From IMG/VR virus record IMGVR_UViG_2734482593_000003: a DNA stretch of 5,833 nucleotides, one strand, 5' to 3'. Origin of the DNA: a virus (taxonomy: Duplodnaviria > Heunggongvirae > Uroviricota > Caudoviricetes). The translations under genes and the position numbers were made by a program. Shown in pieces: positions 1 through 5,833 of the stretch (position 1 is the stretch's first letter; each line of letters starts with the position of its first letter). The notes below the pieces were generated by a model. That model saw only the letters and a list, made by a program, of their open reading frames with translations, was not told the origin of the DNA and searched no databases.

Positions 1-17
1 GCCTGTCCAATGTGCAT

Positions 18-50
18 AAAAAAATCCGGAAACAAGTGAGCGTTTCCGGA
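18..50 (-). terminator. Rho-independent terminator immediately downstream of the portal gene
   Basis: Perfect 9-bp inverted repeat TCCGGAAAC (25-33) / GTTTCCGGA (42-50) with an 8-nt loop. On the minus-strand RNA the hairpin is followed by seven U (plus-strand A run 18-24). The plus-strand flank after the hairpin is only TTCTT, so it is mainly a minus-strand terminator. Confidence 0.6.
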
Positions 51-84
51 TTCTTACACAGCCACTGGATCGGTCAACTGATCC

Positions 85-1241
85 TTAACTGATCGGCATT
101 ACACCACCGGGACGCGGATTCATATCTTCCAGGTCGCGGCAGTCATTGGAAGAGTAAATTCCCCAGTTGATCCCGGTGGCGTAGGCTTCAAAACGGGACT
201 TCATATCCCCGCGCAGTAACGCCCCGGCGTTAAATTTGGCGTAATAAACGCCCTGCTTACTTTTTCGTACCAGTCCGGTGTTGATCCGCTGTTCGATGCG
301 GGTCAGATACGGCACCAGTGAATAGTTGATAAATCCCAGCCCCAGCTCTTCGATATTGTTGAAGGTGGCGCGATCGGTGTTCTGCACCATGTGCAACGGC
401 ACCCGGAACAGACGACAGATTTCTTCCAGCTGAAACTTGCGGGTTTCCAGGAACTGACTGTCCTCGGCGTTCAGCGCCATCGACTTCCAGTCCAGCCCCA
501 TTTCCAGAATCATCGGGCGGTGAGCATTGCCAAGCCCCGTGTGACACTCCTCAAAATCTTTCTTCAGACGCTCGTAAGCATCCGGCGTGAGCTTTTGTTC
601 CGTACGCAACACACCGGATGTCACCGCACCATTACTAAACAACCTGGCACCGTGCTCCTCGGTTGCCGCTGCCAGTGAAATGGCCTCACGCGCATACGCA
701 ATGGGATTCAGCCCGACAAGTCCATCCAGCGTCAGGGTGCGCACATGCCAGATTTCATTCTGGGTCAACACATCCACGGAACCATCCGGAAACGTCACCT
801 GATAAACCGGCTGCCACTGGCTGTTCAGCTTCGGTTCCACACAGCCCGGATCTATCGGAAGAAGCTCCACCACTTCTCCCAGTGCCTTTACCTTGTAGGC
901 GTAAAAATTCCCCCGTAGACACAGGCAGACAATAACCAGCTCCCAGAATTCCTGCGGTGTCATGTAGCCATTAGGTTTTGCCGAAACCAACTTATGCAGT
1001 CGTTCATCCACCGCCCGTGTTTTCAGGGTACCGCTGATTTTGTAGAGACTGCAGGGCAGCATACCAACAGACTCTGCCAGCACCCTGACGCAAGAATAGA
1101 CCGCCGTCAGGCGCATGGCCCGCTGGCTACTGATCCGCTTTCCGGTATAGGTGTCGTATGACAGCCCGATAGCATCAGCAGTTCTGCTGGCGTGGTCACC
1201 GGCACATCGCTTTTTCGTTGAAATAATCCCGAAAAGAACAC
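85..1241 (-). CDS. Phage portal protein (HK97 family); reading frame apparently interrupted by a 1-nt frameshift near 1164-1168 (possible pseudogene or sequencing error)
   Basis: The 85..1332 ORF contains the portal motif (AMRLTAVYSCVRVLAESVGMLPCSLYK) and ends at TAA 87..85. That frame has no ATG/GTG/TTG between the upstream small ORF stop (1241) and Met73 (ATG 1116..1114); its only upstream start is TTG 1332, with no SD, inside the small ORF. A different frame has GTG 1241..1239 with GGAGG 6 nt upstream, encoding MFFSGLFQRKSDVPVTTPAELLMLSG... with good codon usage, and stops at TGA 1109..1107. Codon quality switches between the two frames around the GGG run (plus-strand CCC 1165-1167). Confidence 0.8.
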
Positions 1242-1423
1242 TATTTACCTCCGCCGACAGACTGCCGTGTACGGTCGAGATATCGCGCCACCAGCCACGA
1301 CCAGAACAGGCACAGCGCCCCGGCAACAACAAAACCCGCCGGGGGATAAATCAGCCAGGCACCATACGCCAGCAAAAGCGCACCCAGCACGCCCACCAGA
1401 GGCGCGAGAATCAGCATGATCAT
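1241..1423 (-). CDS. Small hydrophobic membrane protein (60 aa, two predicted TM helices), function unknown
   Basis: ATG 1423..1421 lies 5 nt after GAGGT and directly after the terL stop (TAA 1437..1435). Codons are E. coli-typical (CTG/GCG/GGT rich). Sequence [60 protein letters not shown] has two hydrophobic segments and a basic C-terminus. Its TAG stop overlaps the portal GTG (TAGTG). Confidence 0.6.
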
Positions 1424-1434
1424 AATTACCTCAG

Positions 1435-3168
1435 TTAAAGCGAGCGGATCCCGTAGGACTCAATGTGGTCAGACAGCGTGTCTTCTTTCTCGTACAGCAT
1501 GGCTCTGCCAACCGCCATAATCAGCGCAACTGCACCATCGATTTTGTTTTCCGCCTGCTCTTTGACGGGTTTCACCACATCATCGTTACCCGGCATGTTT
1601 TTGCCGACCACGTTGCCGATACACCAGGTCATGATGGGATTGCCGTCATGATGAAAACGTCCCGATTCAATCGCTGCTTCCAGCTCTTTCATCGGATCGG
1701 ACATATTGGTGAAGTTCTGGACGATAGTGACGGGATTCAGGTCTTCATCAGCAAGGTCATGTGACAACCCGGTCGCCCCGAAGGGGTCGATGGGTGACTC
1801 ACTGACCGGGCTGATTTTGTTCGCCGCTTTGGCCTCCTCGAGGATGTAGCGATAATCCACCTCCGCACCATCGGTAACGGTCAGAACGCCCATTTCCACC
1901 CATTTCTGAAAGCGTTCGGCTGTCCGTCGATCTTCATTTTTCTCGACGCTGTACACCGTGTCATACGGTACCCAGAAACGCGGGGCCACACTGTAGTAAT
2001 GCGTTTTACCGTCAATCTCGCGGGTATAAAGTCGCGCCATGCTGTTCATATCCAGCTTACGCGCCAGGTCAAAGGCCAGAATGCACGGCTGCCCCTCGAA
2101 CTGCTCAAGGGTCAGTGATTTATCCTCGCAGCTCTGCCAGCTCACCAAGTTGAAATACGCCGAACGCGCCGACACCCAGATATTGAGGTGTTTTGTTTTA
2201 AAGACGTTTGCCAGACGGGCGTTATTTTTCGCACGCTGCTGCTGACTTAACAAAAATTCGCGATAAACCGACACGCCAATATTTGGATTGGCTTTTTCCA
2301 GCACCTGCGGGCCGGTCCAGTCGTCACCTTCATCAACGGTATAGATGATCCCGAACAGTTCATCGTTAGGCACCGAGCCGTTGAGCATCTCGATGACTTC
2401 CCGCCGCTTGTCGTAGCACGGCCCCTCAATGTTGTACCCGGCGGTGGTGATGGCCCACATCAGTGGCTGACGTCGCGCCCCCATCCCGGTAAGCATTGTG
2501 GTATAAAGCGCATCGGTGGCATGCTCGTGATATTCATCAACCACGGCACAGTGGGGTGATGAACCATCACCTGGGTTGCCGATCAGCGGTTCAAACCGCG
2601 CGCCATCCTCCGGACGGTTCATGTTTGAGGCGTTAACCTCAATCCCGAACGCTTCCGTCAGCATGGGTGTGCGTTTACACATCAGTCGCGCCGGGCGAAA
2701 GACTTCCCACGCCTGTTTCTCTGTCGTGGCACCGGAATACACTTCCGCGCCAAACTCGTTATCACAGGCAAAACAATACAGGGCAACACCGGCAGAGATT
2801 GCTGATTTGCCGTTCTTACGGGGGATTTCGGTGTACACCTCCCGGAAGCGGCGCAACCGGGTGCCTTTATTGACCCAGCCAAACGCACAGCAGATCACAA
2901 ATAGCTGCCACGGCTCCAGCGTGATGGGCATCCGTTTGAATGCCCACTCCCCCTTGGTGTGCGGCAACAGCTGAATAAATTTCGCGGCCCGTTCAGCCAG
3001 GTCCTTGTCGAAGCGGTAACGAAACGACTTACTTTTTTCCGCCATCAGGTCATCAAGATGGCGCTGGCAGGCCTGAATCACAAACTGGCAGGCAACAATC
3101 TTTCCGCGCACGACATCCCGGGCATACTGATTTGCAGCATTTACGTTGGGGTAAGATTTCCGGCTCAT
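1435..3168 (-). CDS. terL: Phage terminase large subunit (577 aa)
   Basis: Long ORF with ATG start 3168..3166 in an ATGA overlap with the upstream terS stop. Walker A-like PRKNGKS near the N-terminus, acidic motifs (VVDEYHE) and a C-terminal nuclease-like region. Sits between terS and portal as in HK97-like head modules. Assigned from recalled family features. Confidence 0.95.
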
Positions 3169-3659
3169 GATTCGATAATTTTCAGAAACGGGTTAGTGGC
3201 TTTCTTCTGCCCCGCCAGGCCAATCAGACGCTGGCGGCTGCTGGGGTCGAGTCCGAGCATTGCCCCCGTGCTGCTCATCTCGGACTCCTGTTCTTTTTTG
3301 GCGGTCAGCTCCGGATTTTTGACCCTGCCGCCCATTGCACCGGTGATGGTGTTGCCCTGTATGGCAATATTTTTCACGGCACGTCGCCAGAACTCATAGG
3401 CCACGCACCACCGCTCAAGTACCGCCAGGTCAGTCACGCACAGCAGGCCCTGACCGCAGAGTTCTTTGGTTGTCAGTTGCCACATGATCGTGGCGAGAGG
3501 GAGATCTTCTTCAGCGAACCACTCTGGTGGCTCAACACCTTTGATGGGCGTAAAAACAGGTTCATCTTTGTTCAGGGCTCGCTTGCCGGGGTTTCCGGCC
3601 AGCGCCTTGCGCGCCGTTGGCTTGGGGCGACGCCCGGAACGCCCCGCCGTTCCAGCCAT
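3165..3659 (-). CDS. terS: Phage terminase small subunit, P27 family (164 aa)
   Basis: N-terminus [27 protein letters not shown] is characteristic of P27-family small terminase subunits. I chose ATG 3659..3657, which has AGGAG 8 nt upstream, over the GTG at 3668 used by the ORF track. Stop TGA 3167..3165 overlaps the terL ATG. Confidence 0.85.
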
Positions 3660-3780
3660 ATGCGGCACTCCTGGTTAAATTTCATTTTTCGCGGGTATAA
3701 AAAAACGATGGGGCGGGCAGTCCGGAAGACGTCAGGTCACAGGGATTTGCCCCGCCCCTCCCTACAAGTGAGAATAATTA
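3660..3780. other. Putative cos / packaging-recognition region between the HNH and terS genes
   Basis: 121-bp intergenic region in the position where HK97-like phages carry cos (HNH gene - cos - terS). Contains a perfect 8-bp GC inverted repeat GGGGCGGG (3710-3717) / CCCGCCCC (3751-3758) separated by 33 bp, flanked by A/T-rich tracts. Assignment is by position and composition only. Confidence 0.4.
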
Positions 3781-4131
3781 TCACCGGATTCGTTCGCGCG
3801 CTGTTTTCGCTTTATGGCAGGGCCAGCACAGACTCTGCAGGTTGCTGTCTGCGTCTGTTCCGCCATGCGCTTTCGGGATGATGTGGTCGACGGTTTTCGC
3901 CTCGCTCACCACACCGACACGCAGACACAACTGACACAGACCTTTATCGCGCTTCAGAATACGGGCACGAATCACCGTCCATTTTGAGCCATAGCCACGC
4001 TGGTGGCGGCTCAGTCCGCGCTGGTGCTGCACCCAGCCTTCACCGCGATGTTTATCGCAGTAACCCGAACTGTCTGTGGTTGTACCTGCACATCCACGCT
4101 TACGGCAGGCACGTGGGATTAGTGATGGCAT
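3781..4131 (-). CDS. HNH endonuclease, phage packaging-associated (116 aa)
   Basis: ATG 4131..4129 with GAGGT 7 nt upstream. Cys-rich zinc-finger-like N-terminus (CRKRGCAG...C) and HNH motif DHIIPKAHGGTDADSNLQSLCWPCH. Located directly upstream of terS, as HK97 gp74. Confidence 0.9.
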   Translation of the reverse strand: MPSLIPRACRKRGCAGTTTDSSGYCDKHRGEGWVQHQRGLSRHQRGYGSKWTVIRARILKRDKGLCQLCLRVGVVSEAKTVDHIIPKAHGGTDADSNLQSLCWPCHKAKTARERIR

Positions 4132-4173
4132 AAATACCTCATACCCTGCGAAATGTTTACCACGATAAAAAGG

Positions 4174-4521
4174 CTACTTAATGCACTGAGTGCGGATATA
4201 CTCCTGTGCCCCTTCCAGTTGCATCTGCATCGTCATCAGCCGCTCTCTGAGGGTGAAATAATCCCGTTCAGCGGTGTCTGCCAGTCGGGGGCTGGTTGCA
4301 TTATCCACGCCGGAGGCGGTGGTGGCTTCACGCACTGACTGACAGACTGCTTTGATGTGCAACCGACGACGACCAGCGGCAACATCAGCGCGCAGAGTTT
4401 CATTTTCAGCTTTCGCAACTTTGTAGGTAATGGCGTTATCACGGTAATGATTAACAGCCCATGACAGGCAGACGATGATGCAGATAACCAGAGCGGAGAT
4501 AATCGCGGTGACTCTGCTCAT
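4174..4521 (-). CDS. Rz: Rz i-spanin (inner-membrane spanin subunit), shortened variant (115 aa)
   Basis: From ATG 4521..4519, which overlaps the R stop as ATGA, the product [34 protein letters not shown]... matches lambda Rz as I recall it through residue 34, then resumes at AKAEN...[25 protein letters not shown]. About 39 residues of the periplasmic coiled coil are absent relative to the 153-aa lambda Rz. The ORF track starts 4 codons earlier at GTG 4533. Confidence 0.85.
4236..4403 (-). CDS. Rz1: Rz1 o-spanin (outer-membrane lipoprotein subunit), embedded in the +1 frame of Rz
   Basis: Near-identical to lambda Rz1 as recalled: lipobox LVVVGC followed by [43 protein letters not shown] 4403..4401 is taken as the start; alternative starts are TTG 4418 (the position aligning to lambda Met1) or GTG 4442 (ORF track). 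Confidence 0.8.
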
Positions 4522-5015
4522 TGCTGCCCCCACAAACAGACTTCACGCTCAATCTCACGACGGGTCATCAGCCCTTTCCATTGCTTACCGCCAGCATATG
4601 TCCAGCGACGTAGCTGGTCACATGCGCCTTTGATATCGCCCTGGTTTATTTTGCGAAGAAGCGTCGATGTTCTGAAATTGCCAGCGCCCACGTTGTAAAC
4701 GAACGAGTAAAGAGCGCCGCGCGTTGTTTCCGGTATATCGACTTTGATGTACGGGTTAATTTGTCTGGCGACAGTGGCAAGGTCTTTATTCAGGAGGGCT
4801 TTGCATTCTGCTTCGGTATACGTTTTACCGAGCATGATGTCTTTTCCGGTGTGTCCGTGACATACAGTCCATACACCAATGATATCTTTGTATGGTATGT
4901 AGCTGACACCTTCCAGACCATCGTTACCACCTGGGCCAGTGATTAACACAGATGCTATAGCAACAGCCCCACCACCAATAGCAGCTGCAACAGCCTTGCG
5001 TAATGATGGCGACAT
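4518..5015 (-). CDS. R: SAR endolysin (phage 21 R-type lysozyme, 165 aa)
   Basis: Near-identical to the phage 21 endolysin as recalled. Gly/Ala-rich N-terminal signal-arrest-release segment ([24 protein letters not shown]), followed by catalytic Glu/Asp/Thr spacing (GLEGVSY...[12 protein letters not shown]). ATG 5015..5013 overlaps the S stop as TAATG. Confidence 0.95.
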
Positions 5016-5230
5016 TATTCACCTCTCGCAGCCTTACGCTTGTCTTCTCTTATTTTGAAATACAGATTTGTCAGATAAGTCAGAAGCCCCAGAAGCAGAC
5101 TTCCCAGCACACCAATCGCAGCCCACTGTGATGGACTGACCTGATCCAACCACTGCAAAAACCAGTAGCCGGCACTGCCGGCGGAGGTGCCGTAGGCAAT
5201 GCCTGTTGATATTTTTTCCATCTGATACAT
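5015..5230 (-). CDS. S: Pinholin, phage 21 S-type (S21/EssD family), dual-start (71 and 68 aa forms)
   Basis: [71 protein letters not shown]: two TM helices and a basic C-terminus, matching S21/EssD as recalled. Two in-frame ATGs at 5230 and 5221 (Met1 and Met4) give the dual-start motif. G-rich SD-like sequence lies upstream. Confidence 0.95.
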
Positions 5231-5261
5231 ATCCCGCCCCCCGACAGACCTGTGCTATCGG

Positions 5262-5296
5262 AAAGAAAAAAGGCCATCAGCAAAACTCTGATGGCC
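5262..5296 (-). terminator. Rho-independent terminator just upstream of the lysis cassette (candidate late-operon terminator tR')
   Basis: Perfect 9-bp stem GGCCATCAG (5272-5280) / CTGATGGCC (5288-5296) with a 7-nt loop. On the minus-strand RNA it is followed by UUUUUUCUUUC (plus 5271-5261). It lies 32 bp upstream of the S start codon. Confidence 0.6.
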
Positions 5297-5833
5297 TGAA
5301 TCACCTTTACCAATATTGTATGAAAAAACACGCACGACTAATTGACAATAATTTTCATTTCCATTAAAAAAGATCGCGTAGCATTCTTAATTCATGAGGA
5401 ACTTTACCCGCCAGCAATCTGAGTAGCGAAAGCTGTTCATCCCCAATGTTTTTGCTGGCGGGTCCTTTTTTCTACGGTCCTCCTCCCCGGAGGGGGGCAT
5501 TTCATTATTTTTCTAATCGTTACTGGTGAGAAGGCGGAAGAAAAAGCCAGTTCTTCGCCCCTAAATAACAGCATGATTCCAGTCCATGCAAAATCTGATT
5601 TCCAGCTCACACATACCGAGCGCTGTACAAAAAACCGCCAGCCAAGGCAGTTAAGAGTGTGTTCCCGGGGTTTGCTTAGAATATTTTGTAAGTTGTCCGA
5701 AGAGATATTTACAACACCAGAATGATGCATTATCAGTCCCCTGCCAGAGGTTCACTACGTAACCTGACCGACAATGAAGTGGCACACTGAATTTGGCCAC
5801 CTGAACAGAGGTGATATGCTCACCTCAGAACAA

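What the first reader, a model, noticed from the sequence alone, without database searches (positions are those of the whole stretch)
1107..1252. Portal gene is split across two reading frames, apparent frameshift in a G/C run
The main portal frame has no canonical start between the small ORF stop (1241) and Met73 (ATG 1116), which would put the conserved AMRLTAVYSCVR motif at the very N-terminus; its only upstream start is TTG 1332 with no SD. A different frame has GTG 1241..1239 with GGAGG 6 nt upstream and encodes a portal-like N-terminus (MFFSGLFQRKSDVPVTTPAELLMLSG) before stopping at TGA 1109..1107. Codon usage is good in the GTG frame up to the GGG run (plus CCC 1165-1167) and good in the main frame after it. 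One extra G/C there would give an intact protein of about 385 aa (...ELLMLSG-LSYDTYTGKRISSQRAMRLTAVY...). So this is either an inactivated portal (defective prophage) or a homopolymer sequencing error. The exact junction is inferred and could lie anywhere in 1165..1241.
Basis: partly seen in the sequence, partly recalled or inferred. Interest (0 to 1): 0.55.

Follow-up and report, generated by a model that had tools for sequence, protein, structure and literature searches.

The report
Frameshifted, IS4-truncated prophage portal pseudogene
The portal gene of a decayed phage remnant in a Shigella sonnei-type chromosome has lost one G near its start and its 3' end to an IS4 insertion, so it is an ordinary dead gene and not a sequencing error or a special coding device.

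Summary
On the minus strand the HK97-family portal gene starts at GTG 1241-1239, with GGAGG 6 nt upstream and an overlap of the ymfR stop. It stays in the ancestral frame for 21 codons only. Intact homologues (phiP27, SfIV, E. coli prophages) read GAGCTGGCGGATGCT where the window reads GAACT-GCTGATGCT. One G of a GG pair is therefore missing between 1180 and 1179.

The shifted frame stops at TGA 1109-1107. Portal codons 22-380 continue in the other frame down to position 102.

IS4 (window 1-101) is inserted after codon 380. It removes the last 33 codons, and all head and tail genes are gone.

The deletion is identical in all 14 related loci fetched, including S. sonnei Ss046. The resulting 343-aa product is on at least 1000 contigs named S. 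sonnei. No homologue with at least 99% identity to the site was found in the E. coli complete genomes.

The exact repaired 385-aa protein exists in 19 S. sonnei contigs. This suggests that IS4 came first and the frameshift later.

Verdict: routine pseudogene decay in an IS-riddled cryptic prophage. Low interest.

The parts
1248..1252 (-). Shine-Dalgarno GGAGG of the portal gene, 6 nt upstream of the start
   Evidence: Read directly from the sequence. Identical in the phiP27, SfIV and E. coli homologues.
1179..1241 (-). Portal codons 1-21 (MFFSGLFQRKSDVPVTTPAEL) in the ancestral frame. The GTG start at 1241-1239 overlaps the ymfR stop.
   Evidence: tblastn frame -3, 1241..1179, 90% identity to intact portals. 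Annotated portal CDSs in homologues start at the same base.
1179..1180 (-). Site of the 1-base deletion. One G of an ancestral GG was lost between these two bases (CTG GCT became CTG CT).
   Evidence: Alignments A1 and A2 show a single gap column here against four intact homologues. Re-inserting a G gives a protein that exists exactly in 19 S. sonnei contigs.
1107..1178 (-). Out-of-frame tail of the 44-aa product: 23 aberrant residues (LMLSGCHTTPIPESGSVASGPCA) and the stop TGA 1109-1107.
   Evidence: ORF list; codon read-out; no Pfam match.
102..1178 (-). Portal codons 22-380 in the shifted frame. This stretch holds the whole Phage_portal domain. ATG 1116-1114 is Met43 of the intact protein, and gene callers use it as the start of the 343-aa product.
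   Evidence: tblastn frame -2 to position 103. PF04860 359 bits and TIGR01537 263.6 bits. The 343-aa product is on at least 1000 contigs.
1..101 (-). Left end of IS4 (terminal TAATGCCGATCAG... and the start of the transposase, MHIGQA...), inserted after portal codon 380. It supplies the foreign tail VMPIS and the stop at 87-85.
   Evidence: Homology to intact portals ends at 102. Annotated 'IS4-like element IS4 family transposase' at many unrelated E. coli sites. An Nterm_IS4/DDE_Tnp_1 gene follows in the S. sonnei loci.
1241..1423 (-). ymfR-like 60-aa membrane protein gene, intact, between terL and the portal gene
   Evidence: Annotated as ymfR or membrane protein in homologues. The exact protein is on at least 1000 contigs.
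1435..3168 (-). Terminase large subunit gene, intact (577 aa), immediately upstream
   Evidence: ORF list. TerL_ATPase and TerL_nuclease domains in the identical product.

Best explanation
The window lies in a cryptic prophage remnant of the P27/SfIV/ST64B type, of the kind carried by Shigella sonnei. Its HK97-family portal gene is a pseudogene with two independent lesions.

1. IS4 was inserted after codon 380. The IS4 insertion, together with later IS-associated deletions or rearrangements, left no prohead protease, capsid or tail genes.
2. One G was deleted at the codon 21/22 boundary (window 1180|1179). Translation from the authentic GTG start therefore ends after 44 residues.

Because nothing downstream could build a virion any more, the frameshift was probably neutral. 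It rose to dominance within the clonal S. sonnei population.

Shown: the position of both lesions, their presence in independent assemblies, and the existence of an IS4-truncated allele without the frameshift.

Inferred: the order of events (IS4 first) and the neutrality of the frameshift.
For: - Single frame in homologues: phiP27, SfIV and the E. coli A36 and GF131 prophages encode a 413-aa portal in one frame, starting at the GTG that overlaps the ymfR stop.
- The deletion: there is one gap between window 1180 and 1179, and the frame switch is seen by tblastn.
- Independent assemblies: window 1-4417 is 100% identical to S. sonnei Ss046 CP000038.1 and to four other chromosomes fetched (two more differ by a single 1-base indel, and L008 is 99.3% identical). 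The 161 nt around the site are identical in 8 of 8 chromosomes and the site in 6 of 6 IMG/VR contigs.
- Frequency: the 343-aa product is on at least 1000 contigs, all named S. sonnei.
- Absence from E. coli: 1365 complete-genome records have a homologue of the site. None reaches 99% identity, and every listed full-length match spans 122 nt against 121 nt of query.
- Loss of the morphogenesis module: the IS4 transposase gene follows the portal stump directly, and then come other IS elements and host genes (raiA-pheA-tyrA or bamE-recN-nadK-grpE). There are no head or tail genes.
- The repaired allele: the predicted 385-aa protein, which still ends in the IS4-derived VMPIS, is an exact database entry named 'portal protein [Shigella sonnei]' on 19 contigs.
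- Conserved N-terminus: it is conserved in one frame across many genera of Enterobacterales.
- Context: large-scale IS expansion (including IS4) and pseudogene formation by IS and frameshift indels are documented for Shigella (PMC7373316).
Against: - The DNA of the 19 unshifted S. sonnei contigs could not be fetched. Their lineage, and hence the order of events, is inferred from the protein only.
- The window is not identical to any fetched genome over its full length. It has a private 117-nt Rz deletion and an IS3-family end at 5777. Its exact source strain is therefore unknown.
- No read-level data were available.
Confidence: 0.93

Rival explanations
1. Sequencing or assembly error. The real chromosome has the extra G and the gene is in frame at its 5' end.
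For: A minority of S. sonnei contigs (19, plus 4 partial) encode the in-frame version. No reads were inspected.
Against: The deletion is identical in 8 of 8 separately deposited chromosomes and in 6 of 6 IMG/VR contigs. The 343-aa product that gene callers produce only when the frame is broken is on at least 1000 contigs. The site is a GG pair, not a long homopolymer. The gene would still be dead because of IS4.
Confidence: 0.01
2. Programmed ribosomal frameshift (-1), or another recoding event, that makes a full portal from two frames.
For: Both frames are free of stops over 1241-1107, so any -1 slip there would fuse them.
Against: All homologues use one frame. There is no X XXY YYZ slippery heptamer in the 44-aa ORF. 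The two-frame layout is confined to the S. sonnei-type remnant, whose partner genes are deleted.
Confidence: 0.01
3. The stump is still expressed as a 343-aa portal fragment lacking both termini. Ribosomes would re-initiate at ATG 1116-1114, which lies 5 nt upstream of the TGA 1109-1107 stop of the 44-aa ORF. The fragment has acquired some effect, for example poisoning the portal assembly of superinfecting SfI/SfII/SfIV-like phages.
For: The complete Pfam portal domain lies in the 343-aa ORF. The stop of the upstream ORF and this ATG are a few bases apart. The portals of related Shigella phages are 88-99% identical in DNA.
Against: There is no Shine-Dalgarno motif before ATG 1116. Conservation is explained by the recent clonal origin of S. 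sonnei and needs no selection. There is no evidence of expression or phenotype. The Rz gene in the same window shows further decay.
Confidence: 0.04

Closest known systems
Portal protein of Stx2e phage phiP27 (L38, NP_543090.1) and of Shigella phage SfIV (gp03, YP_008766867.1); HK97-family portals (PF04860, TIGR01537)
   Same: Same gene order: HNH, terS (P27 family), terL, ymfR-like gene, portal. Same GTG start overlapping the ymfR stop. Protein identity is 88-94% over residues 1-380.
   Different: Those genes are intact (413 aa, one frame) and are followed by prohead protease and major capsid genes. The window copy lacks one G at codon 21/22 and ends in IS4 after codon 380.
e14 cryptic prophage of E. 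coli K-12 (ymfR-beeE region)
   Same: Related packaging and portal module. The small gene upstream of the portal is annotated ymfR in E. coli. From my own knowledge, the e14 portal homologue beeE is also a pseudogene in a decayed prophage.
   Different: It is a different remnant with different lesions. The beeE comparison was not tested here.
Salmonella prophage ST64B, defective through a frameshift in a tail assembly gene
   Same: ST64B belongs to the same phage group; its portal region is 88.8% identical in DNA. It is a documented case in which a single frameshift disables virion production (PMC7067206, citing Figueroa-Bossi & Bossi 2004).
   Different: In ST64B the lesion is in a tail gene of an otherwise complete prophage and can revert. 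Here the frameshift sits in a portal gene that is also truncated by IS4, and the prophage has lost all head and tail genes, so reversion could not rescue it.
IS-driven genome degradation in Shigella
   Same: IS4 is one of five IS expanded in all Shigella species. Pseudogenes arise through IS insertions and frameshift indels, some of them fixed within lineages (PMC7373316). This locus shows both kinds of lesion.
   Different: That study does not discuss prophages (the word has 0 occurrences). This particular pseudogene is not singled out there.

Membership tests
HK97-family phage portal protein (Pfam PF04860 Phage_portal; NCBIfam TIGR01537 portal_HK97) | Profile match above the curated cut-offs | tested here: met
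   PF04860 scores 359 bits (cut-off 39.1), covering profile positions 2-321 of 321.
HK97-family phage portal protein (Pfam PF04860 Phage_portal; NCBIfam TIGR01537 portal_HK97) | Gene sits between the large terminase and the prohead protease and major capsid genes | tested here: inconclusive
   The upstream side is met (terL, ymfR, portal). The downstream side is met in homologues, but in the window and in the S. sonnei loci it is replaced by IS4.
HK97-family phage portal protein (Pfam PF04860 Phage_portal; NCBIfam TIGR01537 portal_HK97) | One uninterrupted ORF of about 405-415 aa from the conserved MFF.G.F N-terminus | tested here: not met
   The frame is broken after codon 21 and the gene is cut after codon 380. 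By descent it is a member of the family, but as a pseudogene.
Defective (cryptic) prophage remnant | Essential morphogenesis genes missing or disrupted; IS elements at the edges | tested here: met
   There are no protease, capsid or tail genes after the portal stump. IS4 and IS3-family elements flank the region, followed by host genes.
Programmed ribosomal frameshift site | Two-frame layout conserved among homologues, with a slippery heptamer at the junction | tested here: not met
   Homologues use a single frame. No X XXY YYZ heptamer is present.
Sequencing or assembly artefact | The indel is not reproducible between independent assemblies, typically in a long homopolymer | tested here: not met
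   The indel is identical in all 14 related loci fetched, and its product is on at least 1000 contigs. The site is a GG pair. Raw reads could not be examined.

The most novel reading that the evidence does not exclude
The portal stump is not inert. Termination at TGA 1109-1107 is followed by re-initiation at ATG 1116-1114. The resulting 343-aa fragment lacks both termini and co-assembles with, and poisons, the closely related portals of superinfecting SfI/SfII/SfIV-type phages, giving S. sonnei a decoy type of phage resistance.
Probability: 0.03. Interest if true: 0.45.

Novelty: already known. Interest (0 to 1): 0.08.

Why it matters
It matters little beyond annotation.

- The locus should be annotated as one portal pseudogene, both frameshifted and incomplete.
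- Current records differ from that. Some carry a 343-aa 'portal protein'. The Ss046 record carries a 414-aa 'putative portal protein' (AAZ89394.1) that starts at a spurious upstream codon inside ymfR.
- The single-G deletion is a clean marker that separates most S. sonnei assemblies from a minority that keep the G. It might serve as a small lineage marker.
- The locus illustrates the usual order of prophage decay: first an IS hit, then neutral point lesions.

Tried and rejected
- Exact-pattern scans of genome contigs, with the frameshift 37-mer and with the S. sonnei-specific upstream 35-mer, found nothing. That collection holds one genome per species, so this says little.
- A metagenome scan with a pattern that allowed either allele found nothing.
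The large protein search returned only cluster representatives, not P0031.
- IMG/VR contig L018 seemed to show the frameshift allele in a prophage with an intact portal 3' end and head genes. I treat it as a scaffold chimera and did not use it. It contains an N at 2819, enters IS4 internally, and repeats about 385 nt on both sides of IS4.
- A programmed -1 frameshift was considered and rejected.
- A look-up of the window's shortened Rz protein, meant to identify the source strain, found nothing.

Full report
**What is in the window**

All genes lie on the minus strand. In order they are:
- a holin (5230-5015)
- a lysozyme (5015-4518)
- a shortened Rz (4533-4174)
- an HNH endonuclease (4131-3781)
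- a P27-family small terminase (3668-3165; TIGR01558)
- a 577-aa large terminase (3168-1435)
- a 60-aa ymfR-like gene (1423-1241)
- the portal gene

The same order, followed by a prohead protease and a major capsid protein, is annotated in phage phiP27, in Shigella phage SfIV and in E. coli prophages.

**Check of the observation**

- GGAGG lies at 1252-1248 and the spacer TAAATA at 1247-1242. GTG lies at 1241-1239 and shares its G with the ymfR stop TAG.
- The GTG frame gives a 44-aa ORF that ends at TGA 1109-1107.
- The long portal frame is open from TTG 1332. It has no ATG, GTG or TTG between 1326 and ATG 1116.

**Where the break is**

The annotated portal genes of phiP27, SfIV and E. coli strains A36 and GF131 start at the equivalent GTG. 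Each encodes 413 aa in one frame.

The DNA alignments show a single one-base gap in the window. Homologues read ...GCAGAGCTGGCGGATGCTATC... and the window reads ...GCAGAACT-GCTGATGCTATC.... In window coordinates, one G of a GG pair is missing between 1180 and 1179, at the boundary of codons 21 (CTG) and 22 (GCN).

tblastn of the intact portals against the window agrees:
- Residues 1-21 align in frame -3 at 1241..1179.
- The rest, up to residue 380, aligns in frame -2 down to position 103.

The ancestral peptide is ...PAELADAIGLSYDTY..., not ...ELLMLSG-LSYDTY.... The site is not a homopolymer of three or more bases.

Homology to intact portals stops at window 102, after codon 380 of 413.
- From 101 downwards the sequence is the end of IS4: TAATGCCGATCAG..., and then the start of the transposase, MHIGQA...
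- The same sequence is annotated 'IS4-like element IS4 family transposase' at many unrelated E. coli sites, with up to 32 places per genome.
- In the matching chromosomes it is followed by an Nterm_IS4/DDE_Tnp_1 gene.
- The last residues of the window ORF (VMPIS) and its stop come from IS4.
- Beyond IS4 the chromosomes carry other IS elements and host genes: raiA-pheA-tyrA-aroF in some, bamE-recN-nadK-grpE in others. No protease, capsid or tail gene follows.

The prophage is a remnant that cannot form particles, whatever the state of the portal 5' end.

**Source, and whether the mutation is real**

- The exact TerL protein is indexed in 4305 blocks of the assembly collection.
- Window 1-4417 is 100% identical to S. 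sonnei Ss046 (CP000038.1) and to four other chromosomes fetched. Two further chromosomes differ from it by a single 1-base indel. L008 is 99.3% identical and carries the same deletion and the same IS4 junction.
- The 161 nt around the site are identical in 8 of 8 chromosomes. The site is identical in 6 of 6 IMG/VR contigs that share the upstream 35-mer.
- The 343-aa product runs from Met43 of the true protein to the IS4 stop. Gene callers emit it only when the frame is broken. It is recorded on at least 1000 contigs, all named S. sonnei. A 336-aa partial form is on another 1000 or more.
- In the complete E. coli genomes, 1365 records have a homologue of the 121 nt around the site. None reaches 99% identity. 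Every listed full-length match spans 122 nt.

A sequencing error can be dismissed, subject only to the fact that no reads could be inspected.

**A prediction that was borne out**

Re-inserting one G between 1180 and 1179 gives a 385-aa protein. Exactly this sequence, still ending in the IS4-derived VMPIS, is in the public collection as 'portal protein [Shigella sonnei]' on 19 contigs. A 379-aa partial form is on 4 more.

This fixes the ancestral state at the protein level. It also shows that an IS4-truncated allele without the frameshift exists. The simplest history is IS4 insertion first, then a neutral one-base deletion that became the dominant allele in S. sonnei.

The DNA of those contigs could not be obtained, so this order is an inference.

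- The repaired protein matches PF04860 (359 bits) and the HK97 portal equivalog TIGR01537 (263.6 bits against a cut-off of 112).
- Both profiles begin downstream of the lesion, at residues 47 and 39. An HMM scan would not have revealed the frame switch.
- The N-terminal segment is nevertheless conserved. Portals of 403-416 aa from Escherichia, Plesiomonas, Kluyvera, Leminorella, Citrobacter, Pectobacterium, Yersinia, Serratia, Edwardsiella, Xenorhabdus and Morganella all begin MFF.G/S/N.F... and carry ...GL(S/T)YDTYTG... in one frame.
- In 104 of 113 full-length homologues the AMRLTAV-type motif lies at residue 40-44, never at the start.

**Alternatives**

- *Programmed frameshift.* This is excluded for practical purposes. 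Homologues use a single frame, there is no X XXY YYZ heptamer in the 44-aa ORF, and the layout is confined to a remnant without partner genes.
- *Residual expression.* Expression of a 343-aa fragment by re-initiation at ATG 1116, 5 nt upstream of the TGA, cannot be excluded. Nothing supports it, and no Shine-Dalgarno motif precedes that ATG.

**Comparison with what is known**

This is a standard case of prophage decay in a genome known for IS expansion and pseudogene accumulation.
- IS4 is one of the five IS expanded in all Shigella species. Frameshift indels and IS hits together inactivate hundreds of genes (PMC7373316).
- In the same phage group, ST64B is a documented prophage disabled by a single frameshift, there in a tail gene (PMC7067206).
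- The locus is already present in thousands of public S. sonnei assemblies, though with inconsistent annotation.

**Verdict**

It is wrong in the exact site and the junction peptide, it missed the IS4 truncation, and its sequencing-error alternative is refuted. The finding is ordinary and of low interest.

Noticed in passing
window 1-101: Left end of IS4, inserted after portal codon 380. It supplies the last five residues and the stop of the portal ORF.
   Followed up: yes
window 4417-4419: Compared with all 14 related loci and with every listed E. coli match, the window lacks 118 nt of the Rz gene and has one unaligned base. The net loss is 117 nt, or 39 codons in frame. The 115-aa product is not on record anywhere. 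It is either a private deletion of the source strain or an assembly collapse.
   Followed up: partly
window 5777-5833: The sequence diverges here from all S. sonnei loci. It matches a multi-copy element, with up to 24 places per E. coli genome, annotated 'IS3 family transposase' under one of the five listed matches. In this window the remnant is therefore bounded by IS on both sides. The identity of the IS (IS911/IS600-like) was not determined.
   Followed up: partly
window 5728 and 5731: These are the only two substitutions relative to S. sonnei Ss046 in 4419-5776 (A for G at 5731 and G for T at 5728, read on the minus strand).
   Followed up: no
window 85-1329 (minus strand): The Ss046 record annotates a 414-aa 'putative portal protein' (AAZ89394.1). 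It starts at a non-homologous upstream codon inside ymfR, so its first 55 or so residues are out-of-frame ymfR sequence. This is a mis-annotation caused by the frameshift.
   Followed up: yes
L018 (IMGVR_UViG_2663762996_000003) 1-5700: This contig carries the frameshift allele but continues into an SfIV-like portal 3' end. It then has an N (2819), the interior of IS4, and an SfIV-like protease and capsid, with about 385 nt repeated on both sides of IS4. It looks like a scaffold chimera of the remnant with a second, intact SfIV-like prophage.
   Followed up: partly
window 102-3168: The module is a mosaic. The portal as a whole is closer to phiP27 (93.8% against 88.9% for SfIV), but SfIV is 99% identical to the matching stretch of L018 over about the last 440 nt before IS4. 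terL is 94% identical to SfIV and 84% to phiP27.
   Followed up: no
proteins P0063, P0065-P0069: Some database entries of 622 or 646 aa fuse this portal with prohead protease (PF04586) or tail sheath (PF04984/PF17482) domains. All are single short contigs from Logan, apart from one also listed by NCBI. They are probably assembly or frameshift artefacts.
   Followed up: no
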